From: Flectonema sp. DT1601
Taxonomy: Eukaryota
Length of the DNA: 64,000 nt
NCBI GenBank assembly: GCA_964019425.1
Contig: OZ025781.1
Coordinates: 1,178,001 to 1,242,000 of the forward strand
Direction of reading: 5' to 3'
Of the stretch, positions 55,801 to 64,000 are shown in pieces. Below the pieces are notes generated by a model. The model did not search any database. It was not told where the DNA came from and saw nothing but the letters and a program-made list of their open reading frames with translations. Within the stretch, counting starts at the first letter, position 1; each line of letters starts with the position of its first letter. Both the position numbers and the translations under genes were made by a program.

Positions 55801-56227
55801 CTGTTTGTTATTAACTTTAATAGGGATTCTCTTAAAAAGTTAAAAGATTGGTGAAATGAAGTTGTATCTAAATTCTAAGAAGAATAACAGAGGTTTTTCG
55901 CGTTTAAGAAAAACGAGTTGCACACTTCTTGGTAATCAGAATAGCCCAAATTTCCTTGCACATGAGATACCCATTCCGCATCGAGATAATACACTCGGGA
56001 TACCAAGTCACATAAGATACCAGTTAGGACAATGAGAGGTAGATGGAATACTCTCGAAACCTAAAAAAGTAATTAAAGTCCGAACCTGATGTTTTATGTT
56101 GAATTGGTAGTGTAATCTCATCTTTCTGCTCTTGTATATGTGTTGTCAACTAAGTGATCCTCAGTTAGGACTGAAAAAGGAAGATCTTCGACAGAAACAG
56201 GAATTAATAATTAACTAATTTACAAGA

Positions 56228-56336
56228 GAAAGGCCTAAGAGCCAAGGAAGAAGAGCTACAGCAACGACAACGGCTGCTCATCGAAGAACACAACAAGGAC
56301 GTAGGGAACAAGAACTTTGTCCTGCAACGCCAACTC
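56228..56336 (+). mobile_element. Decayed, inverted fragment of the retrotransposon ORF1
   Basis: GAAAGGCCTAAGAGCCAAGGAAGAAGAGCTACAGCAACGACAACGG...CTGCAACGCCAACTC aligns to the reverse complement of 62754-62871 (KGLRAKEEELQQRQR...LQRQL) with substitutions and indels. Confidence 0.8.
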
Positions 56337-56765
56337 GTTTCTTTGAAGAGTTTTTGCCAAAGTGAAAAAACGCAAGATATCCGTAAGACGTGACAAGGCA
56401 AGAAGTAAAGAGCGCTTTTATTCTTTTTTTTTATTTTATTTATTTATTTATTTATTTAGTCACATCCCCCCTGTCTTTCCACTTTATTTTTCTTCATTCT
56501 GAGCATTCTTGCCCTTCTTATTTTTTGATAAAGTAAACAAGTAAAAACAAGCGCAACTGTCCTGAGTCCGTTGGAGGACTTCCCCGGATAGGAATCTCAA
56601 GACACAGTTAATATAAAGCGAAGGATCAGTACAGGGACGGTGGCCAAAGACCACTGGGTTACCTACGAGCCATGAAGCTCTGCGGATGTCCTCAGAGAAA
56701 TTAGGAGATGGTTAAGGAGTGTGATAAGGGAGAATGATACTAATGAATTAGCAACTACCAATCAG

Positions 56766-59700
56766 TTAACAGTTTGATAAGCCTGTTCGTTGTTCCAAAT
56801 GCCATAAGTAGCCGGCTAGGGCATGAAGATTTCTCGTCGCAAACATTATTGAAAGATTTAGTTTGGTCTCGGAGATTCTCGCTTCCTGAATGTTTGATCT
56901 AATTGTTCCTTCTCTAATGCGGACCACGTCACCATCCTCGCAATCAAATATTAGATGTCTGGCAGAAGAGTCTGTTCTTTTGCAGAAGGGGCACTTTATC
57001 GGTAGTTCATTTACCCTGAGCAGGGGGTGAGAGCCCGTTCTGAACCTGGCTATCCTTATCTCTGATTCTCTCAGCATGTCCTTGGGGTATCGAGCCGCTC
57101 TCAGGCCTCCGGTAGCATCAAGATACTGCCTAAGCATCACCCGTTTGATCGGTGGTTTCGCCCTTGTTGAACCCTCCATAATCTTACCAAACAGCTTTCT
57201 GTTAGCTTCCCTCGTTATCCTTGACTTATGTGCGAAGAAGTCCATAGTCGTTGACACCGGCTTGCTCTTAACATCTTTTGAAATCTTTTTCGCCAGTTCA
57301 TCTGCCTTGTCATGCGGTTCAATTCCCACGTGAGCTGGGATGAATTGAAGGTGTACGAATGAGTCTAATTTTCTTATCCCTTCTAGTATCGAGAGAGAGT
57401 TCAGCTTCCTCTGAGCCGCAATTCCACCACGCAGCTCATCCAGATTGGATTTAGAATCACTGAAGACTCTCGTGATTCCAGATCTGGGACCCAAGACAGA
57501 GGTTGCTTTTCCAAATTCACTTATTAACAGCTTCAGAGTTACCTGTTCAGCTTTATAACTACTTTCCGTTGCAACAAGTCTCGATGCCATGGTCCGTTCA
57601 CACGGCGTGATCTGCACTGCTGCTGCGCCTGCCGTGTAGTTGACAGGGTCGTGGGATCCGTCAACAAAAATGGACGAGGTACATGGCCTAAGTTCGCTGC
57701 AGTACTCCTCGAACTTAGCCTTGTCCACTTCAGCAACACCGGTCTTCGAATGTCCATATCCGCAAGATATCTCCAGGTTCGGAACATCTATCCATGGCTC
57801 GATGCTGTCAGGCATGACAATCCCCTGGATCTCCATATTTCGGTCCTCGGCCGGTAAAGTTGAACTCCAAGTTCCACTAGCGATCCCCTTCGTAGAAGGA
57901 ACCCAATCCAGTGATCGATACCTGAACAAAGCTATCCTGGCCTGCTTCTCAATCTGCAGTCTCATCGGGAGTATGTTCGCCTCCCACAGTAACGGAAGGG
58001 ACCTTGTGTTGAAGCCGCAGCCGGTGATCTTTCTAGCTATCTTCCTCAGATTCAGGTCAATAGGTTTTAGCTGTTCATCTGTCAAGAAAGGTCCATAGCT
58101 CTCAAGCCCATACAGAATCCTTGAGAGGATGTATAAGTTCTTGATCATGTTCAGCGTTTTGAAATCAAAGTTGAATTGCTCCAACTTTCGAAGCAGTACA
58201 AGTCCCTTCCTCGTCTCATCCATTAGTTTATCCACTTGTGTACCATATGTAAGGTCATCGTCAATATGGACACCCAAGTACTTTACACTATCCACCATCG
58301 GCATGAGTACGGCAGTCAGCAACTTCACCCAGGTCGGATCCGGTCCCACTGGCATCAGTTCTAGAAGTTCACTTGCCTTCGTAACCTCCGTGTCACCCAG
58401 CTTGAGGATCATCGCCCCATTTCCAAGTAATGGCCTACCTTCTTCATTTGACCGAATCATCCCAGCCAGTTCCTCCCTACTGATCCGAAAGAGGTTCTCT
58501 CCTGACGTTCTGGGGAATCCCAGTCTCCAATACATATTCCTAGGACAATCCACCGGCATCCCGCAGGTCTTCGAAACCGACAGTGCCATGTCATTATCTT
58601 TGCACCAACGATCCACTAACCCGAGGACCAATTGCGCCATCCGGTAAGTTACTTTAAAATCCTTATTCGAGACCACACAAGCTGTGTCGTCTGCGTAGAG
58701 TGCTGAAACACATCCAGTCTTCTCAAGTTTCTTAGCCAGGTCGTCGACATATATCAGATAAAGGAGAGGCCCAACAATCGACCCTTGCGGAACACCTTTC
58801 GTCACAGTTCTGTATGCGCTCAGATTGCCATTGACACTAACCTTTGCCTTCCTTCGCGTCAGAAAGTTAGCGACCCATCCGATGAATGGTGAAGGAATCC
58901 CCATCGCCACCATTTTAGCAATCAGTTTAACATGATTTATCCTATCAAAAGCCTCAGTGAAGTCGAAAGAGAGCAGTATCGAACTCTTACCACCTTTTCT
59001 CGCACCATGAAGCGCATTGACCAGCAGTGAGATTTGCTCGCAAGTATTCCTACCCCTTCTGAAACCTGCCTGGATGGAGGACAAGGCATTATTTGACGTC
59101 AACCAATACATTAGCCTGTCGTAAATTATCCGTTCAAGCATTTTGCCGACTACAGATGTCAACGTGATCGGCCTGTAGCTGGATAGCTTTTCTTTGGGTT
59201 TACCCGGTTTGTATACCGGTTTAATCATACCCTCTTTCCAAACTTTTGGTACCTTAGCCGCGAGCCAGGAGTCGTTAAACACCGATAAGAGAAATCTTCT
59301 ACCGGTTGCGGAAAGGTTCTTGAGCATCGCCCCGTGGATTCCATCAGGACCCGGGGCCTTTCCCGCCTTTATTTTCTTGATTGCACGCTCAAGCTCAGAC
59401 ATTACTAGAGGTCCACAAACACCCACGTAATCATTCGGCTTCAGCTTAGGAGATTTCAATCGTTTCCTGACAGAGGTCTTCACGAATTGCTCAAGGAATT
59501 TAATAGGGAGTTGGTCCTCACTGAATTCAGGGATTTGAATCTCCTGACCCCCATCGGCATCCAGGTCTTTAATTTTCTTAAAAGCAAACGCAAATCCTTC
59601 ACCCTGAGCCAATTTCTCGGCAACGAATTTTCCCTTCGCTTGTTTAGTCTCTGGAGTCGAAGCATTCCACATTCGCCTCCTCTTACCCTGGATCCTAAGC

Positions 59701-60629
59701 CGTCTTCGGATGTTTTTCTTCGCCACATGAAGCAGGATACGGTTAAATGTTGCTGCCCTGATACCCACCTTCGGCATACTGTTCACCTTGCTTAGTCGGT
59801 AGTCCAGATCGCATCGGAACGAAAGCCAATCAGCTGTATTGAAGTCCCAGACCGATTTTTTCGAGGCTTGGTTGTTCACAGTCTCCAGAGGTGAGAACGT
59901 ATCAAAGACAGCAGCAAGTGGTAAGTGATCAGACCCATGTTCGGTACCATCACCAATAAGCCCGAAGTGTAACAATTGTAATTCCTCATGGTGGAGAATA
60001 ACATCCGGCGAAGTACCGTGTCTCGGCAACGTTGCAAATCTCGGATCGTTTGCTATCAGGAGGTTATTCGATTGGCTCCAGCCCAGGAGTTGGCATCCCT
60101 TCGTGTCCGTTTTCTTCGACCAGAGTTTATGATGAGCGTTGAGGTCTCCAGCTATTATGAATCTTTCGTCACTCCTCAGAGGGAATAGATCAAAGTCTAT
60201 CTTAGAGCTTGGTGGCGAGTATATATTGAGAATATTTACCTCATCATTGATTCTAACACCCAATGTCTCTACAATTCCTCTTGCCGCCGGGATACTAACT
60301 TCATAGCATGCGTGCTGAATACCTCTCTTTACCATAGTGATGATTCCACCACCTCTACCCGGTCTATCTCTTCTATACGTTATATAGTTCCAGTGGAAGA
60401 GAGGTTTTCGTACTGAGGTCTCCTGGAGGCATAATACGTCGGGACAATACTTGCTCAGGGTGTAGCCAATGAACTCCTCCCTTCCATTAATTGTTCTGCA
60501 GTTCCAGCTTATGACTTTCAGCTCCGAGGAGGGTCCATCCTGCCGGCGTCTTGGTCCAGGGTTCCTTTCAACGTCACCAGCCAGCAGTAGTAGACGCCTA
60601 CGCGTTTCCGCCCAGTCCCGTCCATCATG
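56766..60629 (-). CDS. Retrotransposon ORF2: 2A peptide, AP endonuclease, reverse transcriptase, RNase H, CCHC finger (no initiator ATG)
   Basis: The frame stays open upstream of the track's 60335 start: ...LLLLAGDVERNPGP...LKVISWNCRTING..PDVLCLQET..GRGGGI. Further motifs GDLNAH, GSDHLP, YRPITL, QGS, YADD, KYLG, VDGS, FSDSKS, FIPAHVGIEPHDKADELAK and CPFC..HLIFDC. Confidence 0.92.
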   Translation of the reverse strand, partial: HDGRDWAETRRRLLLLAGDVERNPGPRRRQDGPSSELKVISWNCRTINGREEFIGYTLSKYCPDVLCLQETSVRKPLFHWNYITYRRDRPGRGGGIITMVKRGIQHACYEVSIPAARGIVETLGVRINDEVNILNIYSPPSSKIDFDLFPLRSDERFIIAGDLNAHHKLWSKKTDTKGCQLLGWSQSNNLLIANDPRFATLPRHGTSPDVILHHEELQLLHFGLIGDGTEHGSDHLPLAAVFDTFSPLETVNNQASKKSVWDFNTADWLSFRCDLDYRLSKVNSMPKVGIRAATFNRILLHVAKKNIRRRLRIQGKRRRMWNASTPETKQAKGKFVAEKLAQGEGFAFAFKKIKDLDADGGQEIQIPEFSEDQLPIKFLEQFVKTSVRKRLKSPKLKPNDYVGVCGPLVMSELERAIKKIKAGKAPGPDGIHGAMLKNLSATGRRFLLSVFNDSWLAAKVPKVWKEGMIKPVYKPGKPKEKLSSYRPITLTSVVGKMLERIIYDRLMYWLTSNNALSSIQAGFRRGRNTCEQISLLVNALHGARKGGKSSILLSFDFTEAFDRINHVKLIAKMVAMGIPSPFIGWVANFLTRRKAKVSVNGNLSAYRTVTKGVPQGSIVGPLLYLIYVDDLAKKLEKTGCVSALYADDTACVVSNKDFKVTYRMAQLVLGLVDRWCKDNDMALSVSKTCGMPVDCPRNMYWRLGFPRTSGENLFRISREELAGMIRSNEEGRPLLGNGAMILKLGDTEVTKASELLELMPVGPDPTWVKLLTAVLMPMVDSVKYLGVHIDDDLTYGTQVDKLMDETRKGLVLLRKLEQFNFDFKTLNMIKNLYILSRILYGLESYGPFLTDEQLKPIDLNLRKIARKITGCGFNTRSLPLLWEANILPMRLQIEKQARIALFRYRSLDWVPSTKGIASGTWSSTLPAEDRNMEIQGIVMPDSIEPWIDVPNLEISCGYGHSKTGVAEVDKAKFEEYCSELRPCTSSIFVDGSHDPVNYTAGAAAVQITPCERTMASRLVATESSYKAEQVTLKLLISEFGKATSVLGPRSGITRVFSDSKSNLDELRGGIAAQRKLNSLSILEGIRKLDSFVHLQFIPAHVGIEPHDKADELAKKISKDVKSKPVSTTMDFFAHKSRITREANRKLFGKIMEGSTRAKPPIKRVMLRQYLDATGGLRAARYPKDMLRESEIRIARFRTGSHPLLRVNELPIKCPFCKRTDSSARHLIFDCEDGDVVRIREGTIRSNIQEARISETKLNLSIMFATRNLHALAGYLWHLEQRTGLSNC
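60552..60599 (-). other. 2A-like ribosomal StopGo peptide RRLLLLAGDVERNPG|P
   Basis: Exact match to the D(V/I)ExNPGP consensus with an upstream leucine run. The Pro codon is at 60554-60552. Confidence 0.9.
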
Positions 60630-63600
60630 TCACTTGCTCCCTACAAGTGTCATCAACAGGCGCTCAAGACGATCTAATCTCTCATCAACTGAATTCTTCT
60701 TTTGCTCCTCCTCCTTTGAGGGTTTATTCTTTTCCTTCTTAACCTGTTTCTGCTCGGCCAACTGTATCTGTGCCACCGTCGAATGAGTTGCCTTAGTCTT
60801 CAGCTCCACTTCCCCCCACAGACGGATTCCCTTCTTCTTACCATGGAAGGCTACGAATTCAGCACGCGTATACCATTTACCACCCGTGCCCTCCGATGGA
60901 TCCTTTCGCTTCTCCGGCTTTTGCTCCCTCACTTTAGGGGTTGCCTTCACTGATTTAGCAGCCTCCTTTTTCCCTATCGATTCAGTGAGACAAAGCACAC
61001 CATCAATGGTTACTGTTTCACCCTCCCTCACCGGACCACGCACTACCATCCATCTCATACCGCTTCGGACACCCTCCTTCATCTTCCTCACATTCCATCC
61101 TTCCCTCGAGATGAGGTACTTCACCGCGTCATCCGTCGGGGTACCTATTGGGATTCCAGATATCCTGGTCTCCGGTAGTTTGGCCGGTAGGTGGAGCTTC
61201 ACTCTTGCAGCCTTCTCATGCCAGCAGTTCACCCTGATCCCTAAGCCATGCTCATTAAGAACAAGTCCCAGACCTCCCTCAATCTCCTCCACTTTGTCCC
61301 TTGCCACGCTAATCGTGTCATCCTTCGGAAGCCACATCACCGAAGCCTTCACTGCTAATTCACCCAGATGATCCTTTTCCTTGGTGAAGATCCCTTCTTT
61401 ACCAGATTCCTTCAGGAAGCCTCTCACCTCTGTCGCCTTCACACGCAACATGACGGTAACGTTCAGGTCGTTTACCCTTGCGTTATATGTGTCTACGTAG
61501 CCAGGCAACTTCCTCAGTTCATTGGTGATTTTCAATGGTGCGCGCTTCACCTCCAACCATCTCTTATCATCAACCCACTTCTTATCGATCCGTACAACCA
61601 TCTCACTGGTCTTCACCGTCGCGTCCACATCGGTTCCTTTTGGAAAGATCTCCCTACCCATGGTAGAAAGCCACACCCTCTTCAGGATTCTTTTCATGCC
61701 ATCGTCCTTTTTCTCTTTCATCACTACCTGTACCTCCTTCGCTTCCTTGGCGGGAGGGAACAGGGTGACTAGCGTCAGCGATGCCCATGCTTCCGGTTTG
61801 GCTCCAGCCATCCTCTTCCTCACCTCCGTAGTCGTCGTGAGGTATACCCCTCTGCCACCTGCAGCATACTCGTCCTCCGACAGTATCATTTTTTCCGGCC
61901 AATATTCCGGTGCTAACTCAAACCTACCAGTGTAAGCAACCTCCTTCCGTGCGTCTGCCTCAAATTTTTCCTGCACCGGAGCCAGACTTCCCGAGTCTCC
62001 AAACATCCGTAACCTGATCCACTCACGCTCCTCCAGTTGACAATCCACGATTGTCTTCACACCCTTCTTCCTTTCACTATCGAGCCCACTCACTTTTTCT
62101 TGGAGCAGAGTTAAGCCCTGCCCTTCCGTTCGTTGGCTTGTGGCATCGTCTACTTCCATTCCGGAATCCTCATGCCCTTCCGATGACCTTAGTTGGTTGA
62201 GGCCCTTCACCTGCGCTCGCTCCGCTTCCAGCTCTTGCAAGTAACGTTCTTGCATTACCGTCGATTCTCTCTTCGCCGCCTCCCTCATTTCTCTGGCTTC
62301 CGTTCGCTGCAGATTCAGCTGTTGCGTCACTTCCTCCAGTTGCTTCTTCAGTGATCTCAGAAGATCCCTGAGTTCACCCTTCTCGGCTCTTTCCTGTCTC
62401 AGCTCCTCCTGTAGCTCCTCAAACCGGGGGTCTTGAGGCGGTTGGTAGTGGGCGTTGCTAGAGGTGGCGTACGGCTGGTGAACGTAATAATGATCCATCC
62501 GTTCTTCCTTTTCTTGAAAGATTTGTTGTTGTTGTTGGAGTTGTTGTTGCTGTTGATACAGGCTGGTTCTCTGATTTTCAATTTCCATGTCCATCTCGGT
62601 CCTTAGACTCGACAATTCCTTCCTACCTTTTTCAATTTCTTCCTCCTGTTGTCGTTGTAGTTGGAGACGTTGGATTTGGAGGTCCTCTTCCTGTTTTTTG
62701 AGTTCCTCACTCCTCTGTTGTTGATGCTGTTTTTCTTGATGGTTTTGTTCGCTGAGTTGGCGTTGCAGGACAAGCAGTTCTTGTTTCCCAACATCATTTT
62801 CCTTGGCATGCTCTTCGATGAGCTTCCGTTGTCGTTGCTGCAGTTCTTCTTCCTTGGCTCGTAGGCCTTTCGCTTGCTCCTTGCTTTTTTTCTCGAGCTG
62901 CTTCTGTAAGGTAAGCAACTCCAGTTTCCCCTTCTCAAGCTCATCATCGAACTGTTGTTGGAGTAGCTGCTGTTTATCTTCCAGGTTGGCCTGCTGTAGT
63001 TGTAGCTCCTGTTGAATCTGAAGCTGTTCTTGTTGCTGTTGACGGTGGTTTTCCTCGAGTTGGCATCTTCTCCTTCGGAGAGACTCACTCTCGATTGCCT
63101 TCTCCTTCTGGTGTTTCTGTTCCAGTTGTTGTTGCTGTGCAATTATTATTTGCTGTTTCTGACGGATATCTTCCTTGTACTGAAGCAACTCCTGCTGTTG
63201 ACGGTTTAGCAGTTCTTGACTCTGTAGTTGGCTTTCCTGCTGTTGTTGGACTTGATGATCGAGTTGCTGTTGCTGTTGTAGATGTTTCTCCTTCTGCTGT
63301 TGGACTTGATAATTAAGTTGCTGTTGTTGCTGCAGTTGTTTTTCTTGTTGCTGTTGGACTTGATGATCAAGTTGTTGCTGCTGTTGCAGTTGTTTTTCCT
63401 GCTGTTGCTGTTGTTGGCTCTCCAATTCCAGTTGCATCTGGTGTTTTGTTTGGTGGAGCTCGAGTTGCTGCTGCTGGTGTTGATTTTCCAGTAGTTGCTG
63501 ATTCGTCTCCTGTTGACTCCTGTGTGCATCCAGGTCGTGTTCTAGTTGTAATTTTTCTTGGAAGAGGTCAAGCTGTTGCTGCTTGTGCTGTTCATCTAGC

Positions 63601-63905
63601 TCAGCCTGCTGGGCTTCTAGAAGTTCCTGCTTGCGAAGCAGTTCCTTCCTTTCCTCCTCCTGTTCTTCCTGCTGCTGCTTGAGCTTACGCTCCTCCGGGT
63701 TCTTCCGCGTTTCACCGCGGTCAACCACCGCGTTTGCCCGGTCCAGCCTTTCCCTGTCATCTTTCTTTGGTCCGTTCCCGTTAGCTGAGTGAGCCAACTT
63801 GTTCATCTCTTTTCTGGAGAGCGACGCGTTGGCTGTACGTGCTCCCCCTTGATCCCTACAAATTTTTGTCGGCCTCAGCCGTCCGAGACCGCCGCGTGGA
63901 GGCAT
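60630..63905 (-). CDS. Retrotransposon ORF1 (1091 aa): Q/E-rich coiled coil plus C-terminal globular region
   Basis: First ATG at 63905, 12 nt after the SL; the track's TTG start lies inside the SL. Ends at TGA 60632-60630, in frame with ORF2. An 18-aa (54-nt) tandem repeat QQQQEKQLQQQQQLDHQV lies near 63230-63410. Confidence 0.85.
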   Translation of the reverse strand: MPPRGGLGRLRPTKICRDQGGARTANASLSRKEMNKLAHSANGNGPKKDDRERLDRANAVVDRGETRKNPEERKLKQQQEEQEEERKELLRKQELLEAQQAELDEQHKQQQLDLFQEKLQLEHDLDAHRSQQETNQQLLENQHQQQQLELHQTKHQMQLELESQQQQQQEKQLQQQQQLDHQVQQQQEKQLQQQQQLNYQVQQQKEKHLQQQQQLDHQVQQQQESQLQSQELLNRQQQELLQYKEDIRQKQQIIIAQQQQLEQKHQKEKAIESESLRRRRCQLEENHRQQQQEQLQIQQELQLQQANLEDKQQLLQQQFDDELEKGKLELLTLQKQLEKKSKEQAKGLRAKEEELQQRQRKLIEEHAKENDVGKQELLVLQRQLSEQNHQEKQHQQQRSEELKKQEEDLQIQRLQLQRQQEEEIEKGRKELSSLRTEMDMEIENQRTSLYQQQQQLQQQQQIFQEKEERMDHYYVHQPYATSSNAHYQPPQDPRFEELQEELRQERAEKGELRDLLRSLKKQLEEVTQQLNLQRTEAREMREAAKRESTVMQERYLQELEAERAQVKGLNQLRSSEGHEDSGMEVDDATSQRTEGQGLTLLQEKVSGLDSERKKGVKTIVDCQLEEREWIRLRMFGDSGSLAPVQEKFEADARKEVAYTGRFELAPEYWPEKMILSEDEYAAGGRGVYLTTTTEVRKRMAGAKPEAWASLTLVTLFPPAKEAKEVQVVMKEKKDDGMKRILKRVWLSTMGREIFPKGTDVDATVKTSEMVVRIDKKWVDDKRWLEVKRAPLKITNELRKLPGYVDTYNARVNDLNVTVMLRVKATEVRGFLKESGKEGIFTKEKDHLGELAVKASVMWLPKDDTISVARDKVEEIEGGLGLVLNEHGLGIRVNCWHEKAARVKLHLPAKLPETRISGIPIGTPTDDAVKYLISREGWNVRKMKEGVRSGMRWMVVRGPVREGETVTIDGVLCLTESIGKKEAAKSVKATPKVREQKPEKRKDPSEGTGGKWYTRAEFVAFHGKKKGIRLWGEVELKTKATHSTVAQIQLAEQKQVKKEKNKPSKEEEQKKNSVDERLDRLERLLMTLVGSK

Positions 63906-63917
63906 TTTGTGTGGTCC

Positions 63918-63956
63918 CAATAAAGTACAGAAACTGTAGCTTTAGAATCGTTGGTT
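63918..63956 (-). other. Complete 39-nt diplonemid-type spliced-leader exon in genomic DNA
   Basis: AACCAACGATTCTAAAGCTACAGTTTCTGTACTTTATTG is 39 nt with the 3' core CAGTTTCTGTACTTTATTG shared by kinetoplastid and diplonemid SLs. It is followed by GGACC, not by an SL-intron GT donor. Confidence 0.93.
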
Positions 63957-63970
63957 AAATAAATAAAATT

Positions 63971-64000
63971 TTTATTTATTTATTTATTTAGTCACATCCC
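63971..64000 (-). repeat. Exact 30-nt copy of the element's 3'-end region (next tandem copy or long TSD)
   Basis: (TTTA)5 GTCACATCCC is identical to 56439-56468 and runs off the window edge. Confidence 0.75.

What the first reader, a model, noticed from the sequence alone, without database searches (positions are those of the whole stretch)
60552..60632. Double recoding cassette in a LINE: single in-frame UGA, stem-loop and 2A StopGo join ORF1 to an ATG-less ORF2
Seen: ORF1 ends ...AGC AAG TGA CAT GAT GGA CGG GAC TGG GCG GAA ACG CGT AGG CGT CTA CTA CTG CTG GCT GGT GAC GTT GAA AGG AAC CCT GGA CCA, and the same frame continues unbroken through APE, RT and RNase H to 56766. No in-frame ATG occurs until 60335, which is already past the APE SWN and LQET motifs, so a complete ORF2 cannot start from its own ATG. 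Known: UGA followed by C is the leakiest stop context, and 2A peptides occur in trypanosomatid L1Tc/Ingi elements. Inference: rare readthrough sets a low ORF2:ORF1 ratio, then 2A releases a free ~1262-aa Pro-initiated ORF2 from the coiled-coil ORF1. I do not know of this readthrough-plus-StopGo combination being described for a non-LTR element.
Basis: partly seen in the sequence, partly recalled or inferred. Interest (0 to 1): 0.92.

Follow-up and report, generated by a model that had tools for sequence, protein, structure and literature searches.

The report
Retrotransposon with stop-plus-2A gene junction
A jumping-gene family, likely from a diplonemid protist, has a conserved stop codon followed by a start-codon-less ribosome-skipping (2A) peptide between its two genes; its copying enzyme is likely made by occasional read-through of the stop followed by skipping, a pairing I did not find described for this kind of element.

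Summary
A full-length APE-RT LINE (minus strand, 63956-56439) has ORF1 (1091 aa; predicted coiled coil plus two RRM-like domains), one in-frame UGA-C, a 25-codon spacer ending in a canonical 2A motif, and a 1262-aa ORF2 with no AUG before codon 99. All 22 of 22 ORF1 sequences in four clusters stop at this place. A frameshifted sister copy (ORF1 69% identical), which reads the junction off-frame, implies the same UGA+pyrimidine, the same frame and spacer length, and no AUG. By the closest-codon reading, codons 2-26 keep their amino acids, with 13 third-position and 0 second-position changes. So the spacer is likely translated from about codon 2 on. Readthrough followed by StopGo is the best explanation (about 0.5), but it is untested; L1-style AUG-independent reinitiation is the main rival (0.25). 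Also found: a spliced-leader exon and a likely HDV-like ribozyme overlapping the ORF1 start. The element works like Ingi/L1Tc but has an ORF1, and nearby relatives start ORF2 with their own Met before 2A. Verdict: new variant of a known kind.

The parts
63971..64000 (-). 30-nt copy of the element's 3' end with (TAAA)n: target-site duplication or end of a tandem copy (window ends here)
   Evidence: 100% match to 56439-56468
63918..63956 (-). Complete 39-nt euglenozoan spliced-leader exon at the element's 5' end
   Evidence: 37 of 39 identical to consensus 'Euglenozoa 14' in PMC3795323; the only match in the window
63856..63918 (-). Predicted HDV-like ribozyme; its first G is the last G of the spliced leader and the ORF1 ATG (63905) lies inside it
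   Evidence: Rfam CPEB3 weak match E 0.8, below gathering score; own descriptor hits only here, 0 of 200 shuffles (descriptor written after seeing the site); ORF1 relatives begin MP[PS]RGGLG
60630..63905 (-). ORF1, 1091 aa: Gln-rich predicted coiled coil, then folded C-terminal half, ending in a short conserved helix
   Evidence: no Pfam hit; model pLDDT 85; related domain lies before APE-RT in single-ORF elements P0273 and P0313
61368..61616 (-). RRM-like domain 1 of ORF1 (predicted fold)
   Evidence: VIA Z 7.9, rmsd 2.3, 71 aligned to MEC-8 RRM; Z under 8 may be only a common fold
60972..61178 (-). RRM-like domain 2 of ORF1 (predicted fold)
   Evidence: VIA Z 7.6-7.7 to p65 and TRMT2A RRM-type domains
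60630..60632 (-). Conserved in-frame UGA, followed by C
60555..60629 (-). 25-codon AUG-less spacer / 2A peptide under protein-level constraint in the ORF1/ORF2 frame
   Evidence: 13 third-position vs 0 second-position changes in codons 2-26 of the sister copy; 8 of 8 listed changes silent in run X1
60623..60628 (-). Two out-of-frame (+1) ATGs right after the stop; the second is kept in the sister copy, the first is not
60591..60624 (-). Predicted hairpin after the stop; not conserved
56766..60554 (-). Predicted Pro-initiated ORF2, 1262 aa: APE (about 60512-59925), RT (about 59198-58266), RNase H-like region (about 57670-57290), C-terminal CxxC..HxxxxC
56439..56765 (-). 3' untranslated region and (TAAA)n tail; no SECIS match

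Best explanation
This LINE family likely makes its endonuclease-reverse transcriptase by occasional read-through of the conserved UGA-C at the end of ORF1, after which the 2A peptide 25 codons on would make the ribosome skip a bond and release a free Pro-initiated ORF2p. Shown: one in-frame UGA; no AUG before the APE motifs; stop position shared across the family; spacer evolving as protein in this frame; canonical 2A motif. Inferred: most ribosomes stop and give abundant ORF1p (1091 aa). A small share, probably at the basal UGA-C rate since no conserved RNA stimulator exists, insert an amino acid and make ORF1p-X-2A (1117 aa) plus ORF2p (1262 aa). The template is likely one two-gene RNA, since this copy carries an exact spliced-leader exon at its 5' end. 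The state is likely derived from relatives whose ORF2 starts with its own Met 21-35 codons before 2A.
For: (1) Stop conserved: 22 of 22 sequences in four ORF1 clusters (one is the window's own) end LVG[SG]K. 4 of 6 in a 57%-identical family end at the same alignment column; the other 2 are N-terminal fragments. (2) Frameshifted sister copy P0239 reads the junction in +1 without gaps. It implies xGA+pyrimidine (TGA, as its cluster ends there), no possible in-frame ATG in spacer codons 1-36, and unchanged amino acids at codons 2-26 by the closest-codon reading. Third- vs second-position changes are 13:0 (P 1e-4), 5:0 in codons 2-12 (P 0.03) and 4:0 in codons 2-8 (P 0.06; P 0.003 if the spacer were neutral). 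(3) The decoding matches real DNA: 13 of 16 listed differences of an independent contig in run X1 have the same letter. It also gives 23 of 23 consistent codons for P0244 vs P0241, whose stop is again TGA+pyrimidine. (4) The only AUGs beside the stop are out of frame; they would divert reinitiating ribosomes but not elongating ones (inference). (5) All 7 listed ORF2 cluster members that reach the N-terminus start at the internal Met (16 of 74 members seen). (6) No fused close relative among 12 long hits (weak).
Against: No expression data: readthrough is not observed. The context is UGA-CAU (sister UGA-CYU by parsimony), not the consensus UGA-CUA/CGG. The hairpin is not conserved, and silent sites after the stop change as often as elsewhere, unlike the readthrough signals of Firth 2011. 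Spacer evidence for codons 1-13 rests on one damaged copy, where first codon positions are mostly hidden. Mammalian L1 ORF2 tolerates replacing its AUG by other sense codons (as cited in PMC1965478), so an AUG-less ORF2 does not require readthrough. Related families P0005, P0180 and Flectonema P0004/P0164 have a Met before 2A, so 2A predates any readthrough role. No 2A was visible after the stop in P0244 (by-hand reading).
Confidence: 0.5

Rival explanations
1. AUG-independent termination-reinitiation, as proposed for mammalian L1. Ribosomes stop at UGA, a few stay on the RNA and restart in frame at or next to spacer codon 1-2, and 2A then gives ORF2p a uniform N-terminus.
For: Also explains coding from codon 2 and the free change of codon 1. 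L1 precedent as cited in PMC1965478 and PMC5972666; caliciviral reinitiation tolerates non-AUG codons. No readthrough structure is conserved.
Against: Out-of-frame AUGs 2 and 5 nt after the stop should capture restarting ribosomes. No TURBS core TGGGA in the 130 nt upstream. Reinitiation after long ORFs usually uses an out-of-frame start (PMC10275272).
Confidence: 0.25
2. Initiation at a near-cognate codon inside the spacer (ACG, codon 9), by reinitiation or by leaky scanning on an RNA trans-spliced near the end of ORF1, giving a 17-aa 2A.
For: ACG is in frame and compatible with the sister copy. An AG with a modest pyrimidine run lies at 60642. Some relatives have only 18-22 aa up to the skip site (P0018, P0180).
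Against: Codons 2-8, upstream of ACG, change only at third positions (4:0; P 0.06, or 0.003 under neutrality). The AG is not among the top 15 candidates of the element.
Confidence: 0.1
3. ORF2 really starts at the conserved +1 ATG (60625) and gains the frame by a one-base slip, or the assembly systematically lacks one G there, which would give Met-Gly-Arg-Asp-Trp before 2A.
For: This ATG is kept in both subfamilies. Relatives have Met 21-35 codons before the skip site, and Flectonema P0004 begins MDG. No raw read covers this base: the X1 contig ends at 60619.
Against: No slippery site. Both long ORFs of this copy are intact, so the local error rate is low. 7 of 7 listed N-termini lack the extension, and two diverged sequence contexts would need the same error.
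Confidence: 0.07
4. A 36-nt in-frame GT..AG intron (60633-60598) removes the stop in some transcripts.
For: Ends and length fit; diplonemids have many cis introns (PMC10161547).
Against: The would-be intron evolves as protein (5:0 in codons 2-12). No intron-less fused copy was found.
Confidence: 0.05

Closest known systems
Ingi/L1Tc clade LINEs of trypanosomatids
   Same: APE-RT-RNase H layout, 2A directly before APE, HDV-like ribozyme at the 5' end (PMC3708506, PMC4035085, PMC12278014; passages)
   Different: Ingi elements are reported to lack ORF1 and start 2A from their own ORF; this element has a 1091-aa ORF1, an in-frame stop and no AUG before 2A
CR1-26_BF, CR1-53_BF, CR1-1_LG (2A-bearing LINEs with ORF1; Odon 2013, Luke 2013)
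   Same: Both an ORF1 and a 2A at the N-terminus of ORF2; proposed as intermediates in the loss of ORF1
   Different: The passages read give no in-frame single stop, AUG-less start or readthrough for them ('readthrough' occurs 0 times in PMC3708506); their junctions were not examined here
Mammalian L1 and silkworm SART1 ORF2 translation
   Same: Two-gene RNA with low ORF2 output; L1 tolerates loss of the AUG
   Different: They use termination-reinitiation (63-nt spacer, or UAAUG), have a natural AUG and no 2A
MuLV gag-pol and alphavirus UGA readthrough
   Same: In-frame stop between structural/accessory and polymerase parts; UGA-C context
   Different: They have conserved 3' RNA stimulators and are not cut by 2A (protease processing is recalled, not from a call)
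Providence virus; cardioviruses (two recodings in one genome)
   Same: Readthrough and 2A both occur in Providence virus; cardioviruses couple StopGo with a nearby frameshift
   Different: In Providence virus the readthrough stop and the 2A sites are in different ORFs; in cardioviruses StopGo comes first. Here a stop precedes 2A by 25 codons in one frame

Membership tests
APE-type non-LTR retrotransposon (LINE) | APE and RT domains in one ORF | tested here: met
   Pfam PF03372/PF14529 and PF00078 above cut-off
APE-type non-LTR retrotransposon (LINE) | Multi-copy, 5'-truncated copies, simple-repeat tail | tested here: met
   74-member ORF2 cluster with many truncated members; (TAAA)n tail
APE-type non-LTR retrotransposon (LINE) | Target-site duplication | tested here: inconclusive
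   30-nt repeat at both ends but cut by the window edge
Ingi/L1Tc clade | RT phylogeny groups with L1Tc/ingi | not testable with these tools
   No reference Ingi sequence came from any call; the tree holds only unnamed and Flectonema relatives
Ingi/L1Tc clade | RNase H domain after RT | tested here: inconclusive
   No Pfam hit on this protein; PF00075 on aligned relatives
Ingi/L1Tc clade | 5' HDV-like ribozyme (Pr77) | tested here: inconclusive
   HDV-like fold predicted, below Rfam threshold; sequence likeness to Pr77 and activity not tested
Ingi/L1Tc clade | Single ORF, no ORF1 | tested here: not met
   1091-aa ORF1 with conserved stop
Class A 2A/StopGo peptide | (G/H)D(V/I)ExNPGP with hydrophobic upstream tract | tested here: met
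   LLLLAGDVERNPGP, under silent-only change
Class A 2A/StopGo peptide | Measured skipping activity | not testable with these tools
   needs a reporter assay
Structure-stimulated UGA readthrough (Firth 2011) | UGA-CUA or UGA-CGG context | tested here: not met
   UGA-CAU here; UGA-CUU or UGA-CCU in the sister by parsimony
Structure-stimulated UGA readthrough (Firth 2011) | Conserved 3' stem with low silent-site change | tested here: not met
   hairpin broken in the sister; two-sequence consensus fold of 126 nt no better than 55-57 of 60 shuffles; longer-range pairing not tested
Selenocysteine recoding | SECIS in the 3' UTR | tested here: inconclusive
   no Rfam SECIS match at E<=5; divergent forms could be missed

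The most novel reading that the evidence does not exclude
A LINE lineage lost the start codon of its polymerase gene and now expresses it by two recoding events in series in one frame: leaky UGA readthrough sets the ORF1:ORF2 ratio and 2A StopGo 25 codons later frees the enzyme. The RNA's 5' end is made either by an HDV-like ribozyme that overlaps the ORF1 start or by spliced-leader trans-splicing onto the same G.
Probability: 0.45. Interest if true: 0.85.

Novelty: new variant of a known kind. Interest (0 to 1): 0.7.

Why it matters
How LINEs translate ORF2 from a two-gene RNA is called an open question in the 2A-retrotransposon papers read here (PMC3894237, PMC3708506). This family packs the problem into 78 nt that can be dropped into a dual reporter, with natural variants and with close relatives that keep the AUG as controls. 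If readthrough is confirmed, it adds a third route besides reinitiation and single-ORF 2A. It would also give a concrete intermediate between two-ORF and single-ORF elements, and a natural case of stop-readthrough and StopGo acting in series. If reinitiation is the answer, it is a natural AUG-less ORF2 in which 2A makes the start site irrelevant.

Tried and rejected
No whole genome is held, so sister copies could be read only as proteins. No RNA holder listed; the single run X1 covers 60313-60619 and misses the stop and both +1 ATGs. Metagenome scans: 0 relatives with the junction protein; 68 distant loci (24-42% identity), 0 of 68 with a 2A-like motif; viral contigs 0. Off-frame junction ORFs are not in the protein collection as exact sequences (0 of 7). 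Rejected: private nonsense mutation; UGA=Trp host code; conserved stem-loop; a functional +1 ORF (0 of 8 changes silent and a stop in X1). First ORF1 model was low-confidence (pLDDT 46); Foldseek gave no match at E<=0.001 for the second. Atlas search of ORF1 gave only scores of 0.76; the ORF2 search did not complete. No earlier scan findings. What follows the stop in the P0241/P0244 family could not be decoded with confidence.
Full report
Observation. On the minus strand a 1091-aa ORF1 (ATG 63905) ends in TGA at 60632-60630, followed by C. The same frame stays open for 1287 codons to 56766. The first ATG in it is codon 99 (60335), past the APE motifs SWN and LQET; no GTG or TTG comes earlier, and the in-frame near-cognate codons before the skip site are ACG (9), AGG (11), CTG (15, 16) and AGG (22). 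Codons 13-26 are LLLLAGDVERNPGP, the only 2A-type match in six frames of the window. APE and RT pass Pfam cut-offs. Two out-of-frame ATGs follow the stop directly (60628, 60625). UGA is a stop in this host.

Is the stop private? No whole genome is held, so I used protein clusters. All 22 of 22 sequences in four ORF1 clusters (69-100% identical, one being the window's own) end LVG[SG]K. In a 57%-identical family, 4 of 6 end at the same column and 2 are N-terminal fragments. Of 16 seen members of the 74-member ORF2 cluster, the 7 that reach the N-terminus all start at the internal Met. Shared contig lengths pair the diverged ORF1 types with these ORF2s (inference). No close fused relative appeared among 12 long hits (weak by the tool's own note).

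Is the spacer translated? A profile search returned P0239, a frameshifted copy of a sister subfamily (69% identical ORF1) whose last 54 residues read the junction in the +1 frame without gaps. A +1 translation shows second and third codon positions almost directly. It implies xGA plus a pyrimidine at the stop (TGA, since that cluster ends there) and no possible in-frame ATG in codons 1-36. By the closest-codon reading the amino acids are identical at codons 2-26; only codon 1 differs. Third- versus second-position changes: 13:0 in codons 2-26 (P 1e-4), 5:0 in 2-12 (P 0.03), 4:0 in 2-8 (P 0.06), 4:1 in 1-8 (P 0.19). If the spacer were neutral at the silent rate of 0.57, 0 of 7 second-position changes has P 0.003 and at most 1 of 8 has P 0.013. 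Controls: 13 of 16 listed differences in a real contig of run X1 carry the same letter as the decoding, and 8 of 8 of its listed changes in codons 14-26 are silent. The same method gives 23 of 23 consistent codons for P0244 against P0241 (about 40% identical family), again with TGA+pyrimidine. Limits: codons 1-13 rest on one damaged copy, first positions are mostly hidden, and 7 further X1 differences near the piece ends were not listed.

The stem-loop. A hairpin 5 nt after the stop folds well in a 45-nt window (z -3.3) but not in 60 or 130 nt. In the sister 3 of 12 pairs break without compensation (z -0.3), and a two-sequence consensus over 126 nt is no better than 55-57 of 60 column shuffles. 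The context is not the UGA-CUA/CGG consensus (PMC3159437, passages).

Surroundings. The element begins with an exact 39-nt spliced-leader exon (63956-63918; 37 of 39 identical to a euglenozoan consensus in PMC3795323, table passage). Its last G starts a predicted HDV-like ribozyme (Rfam CPEB3 E 0.8, sub-threshold; own descriptor hits only here and in 0 of 200 shuffles, but was written after seeing the site). The ORF1 ATG lies inside it, and 9 of 11 printed ORF1 N-termini carry MP[PS]RGGL; the other 2 are cut inside it. An exact exon boundary suggests that a trans-spliced RNA holding ORF1, stop and ORF2 was the template of this insertion (inference); P0229 suggests not every copy has the leader. 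The ORF1 C-half models at pLDDT 85 with two RRM-like domains (Z 7.6-7.9; a common fold), and related domains precede APE-RT in single-ORF elements P0273 and P0313.

History. In an ORF2 tree of 15 sequences the window's family, P0002 and P0149 form a clade (support 1.0), sister to Flectonema neradi P0004. P0004 and P0164 (transcript calls) and families P0005 and P0180 have a Met 21-35 codons before the skip site (for the genomic calls the Met may be GTG or TTG). So the AUG-less state is likely derived. For P0002 and P0149 the junction is unseen, and P0149 has a Met just before APE.

Mechanism. Ribosomes must be in this frame by about codon 2 with no start codon, while the nearest AUGs are out of frame. 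Elongation through the stop is the simplest reading, at a basal UGA-C rate, and 2A would then cut ORF2p from the coiled-coil ORF1p (0.5). AUG-independent reinitiation as for L1 (PMC1965478 and PMC5972666, passages) fits nearly as well (0.25). ACG initiation (0.1), a slip or missing base at the +1 ATG (0.07) and a 36-nt intron (0.05) fit worse. Nothing here measures translation.

Known or new. 2A before APE is known in Ingi/L1Tc and in CR1, L2, Rex1 and Crack elements, mostly without ORF1; three exceptions have both (PMC3708506, passages; PMC3894237, parts 1-2 of 3). The element works like Ingi but fails the single-ORF feature, and its clade could not be tested. Providence virus has readthrough and 2A in different ORFs (PMC6548363, passage); cardioviruses pair StopGo with a frameshift (PMC5009743, passages). 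Searches (listings and abstract starts) and passage searches in PMC12846837, bioRxiv 10.64898/2026.09.24.754024, PMC10275272, PMC4035085, PMC12278014 and PMC10161547 (supplements of the last searched without hits) showed no LINE with readthrough followed by 2A. The library lacks most subscription papers, and the preprint's supplements (330 2A-bearing retroelement contigs) were not seen and could hold such a case. Verdict: real, conserved, new variant of a known kind; interest 0.7.

Noticed in passing
window 63918-63956 (-): Exact spliced-leader exon at the 5' end of a LINE insertion, its last G doubling as the first base of the predicted ribozyme; suggests retrotransposition of a trans-spliced, uncleaved RNA.
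   Followed up: partly
window 63856-63918 (-): Predicted HDV-like ribozyme overlapping the first 15 codons of ORF1; explains the conserved MP[PS]RGGLG start while the rest of the N-terminus diverges.
   Followed up: partly
window 63957-63982: A perfect palindrome of the (TAAA)n tail sits between the 30-nt repeat and the spliced leader, possibly a scar of 5' junction formation.
   Followed up: no
proteins P0237 vs P0121-P0129; P0197 vs P0198/P0199: Subfamilies have ORF2 96% identical (90% in the first 200 aa) but ORF1 only 69% identical: likely mosaic elements with exchanged 5' halves.
   Followed up: no
proteins P0273, P0313, P0269: Distant single-ORF elements carry an ORF1-like domain, then an OTU-like cysteine protease (Pfam hit in P0273; similar motif by eye in the other two), then APE-RT in P0273 and P0313: possibly a protease-based alternative to 2A for separating ORF1 from ORF2.
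   Followed up: partly
proteins P0247-P0257 and others: A roughly 40-aa motif near the ORF1 C-terminus (KRRDP..G..YT..EF..FHG...G..LW) recurs in several copies in many unrelated-looking proteins; no Pfam family was reported for it in the two scanned.
   Followed up: no
window 56223-56336 (+): Inverted 84%-identical fragment of ORF1-like sequence just past the element's 3' end.
   Followed up: no
proteins P0180 vs P0007; P0004 vs P0164: Within single families, some copies have a Met before 2A and others are called without it, or have different N-termini joined just before 2A: the ORF2 start is labile in this lineage.
   Followed up: partly
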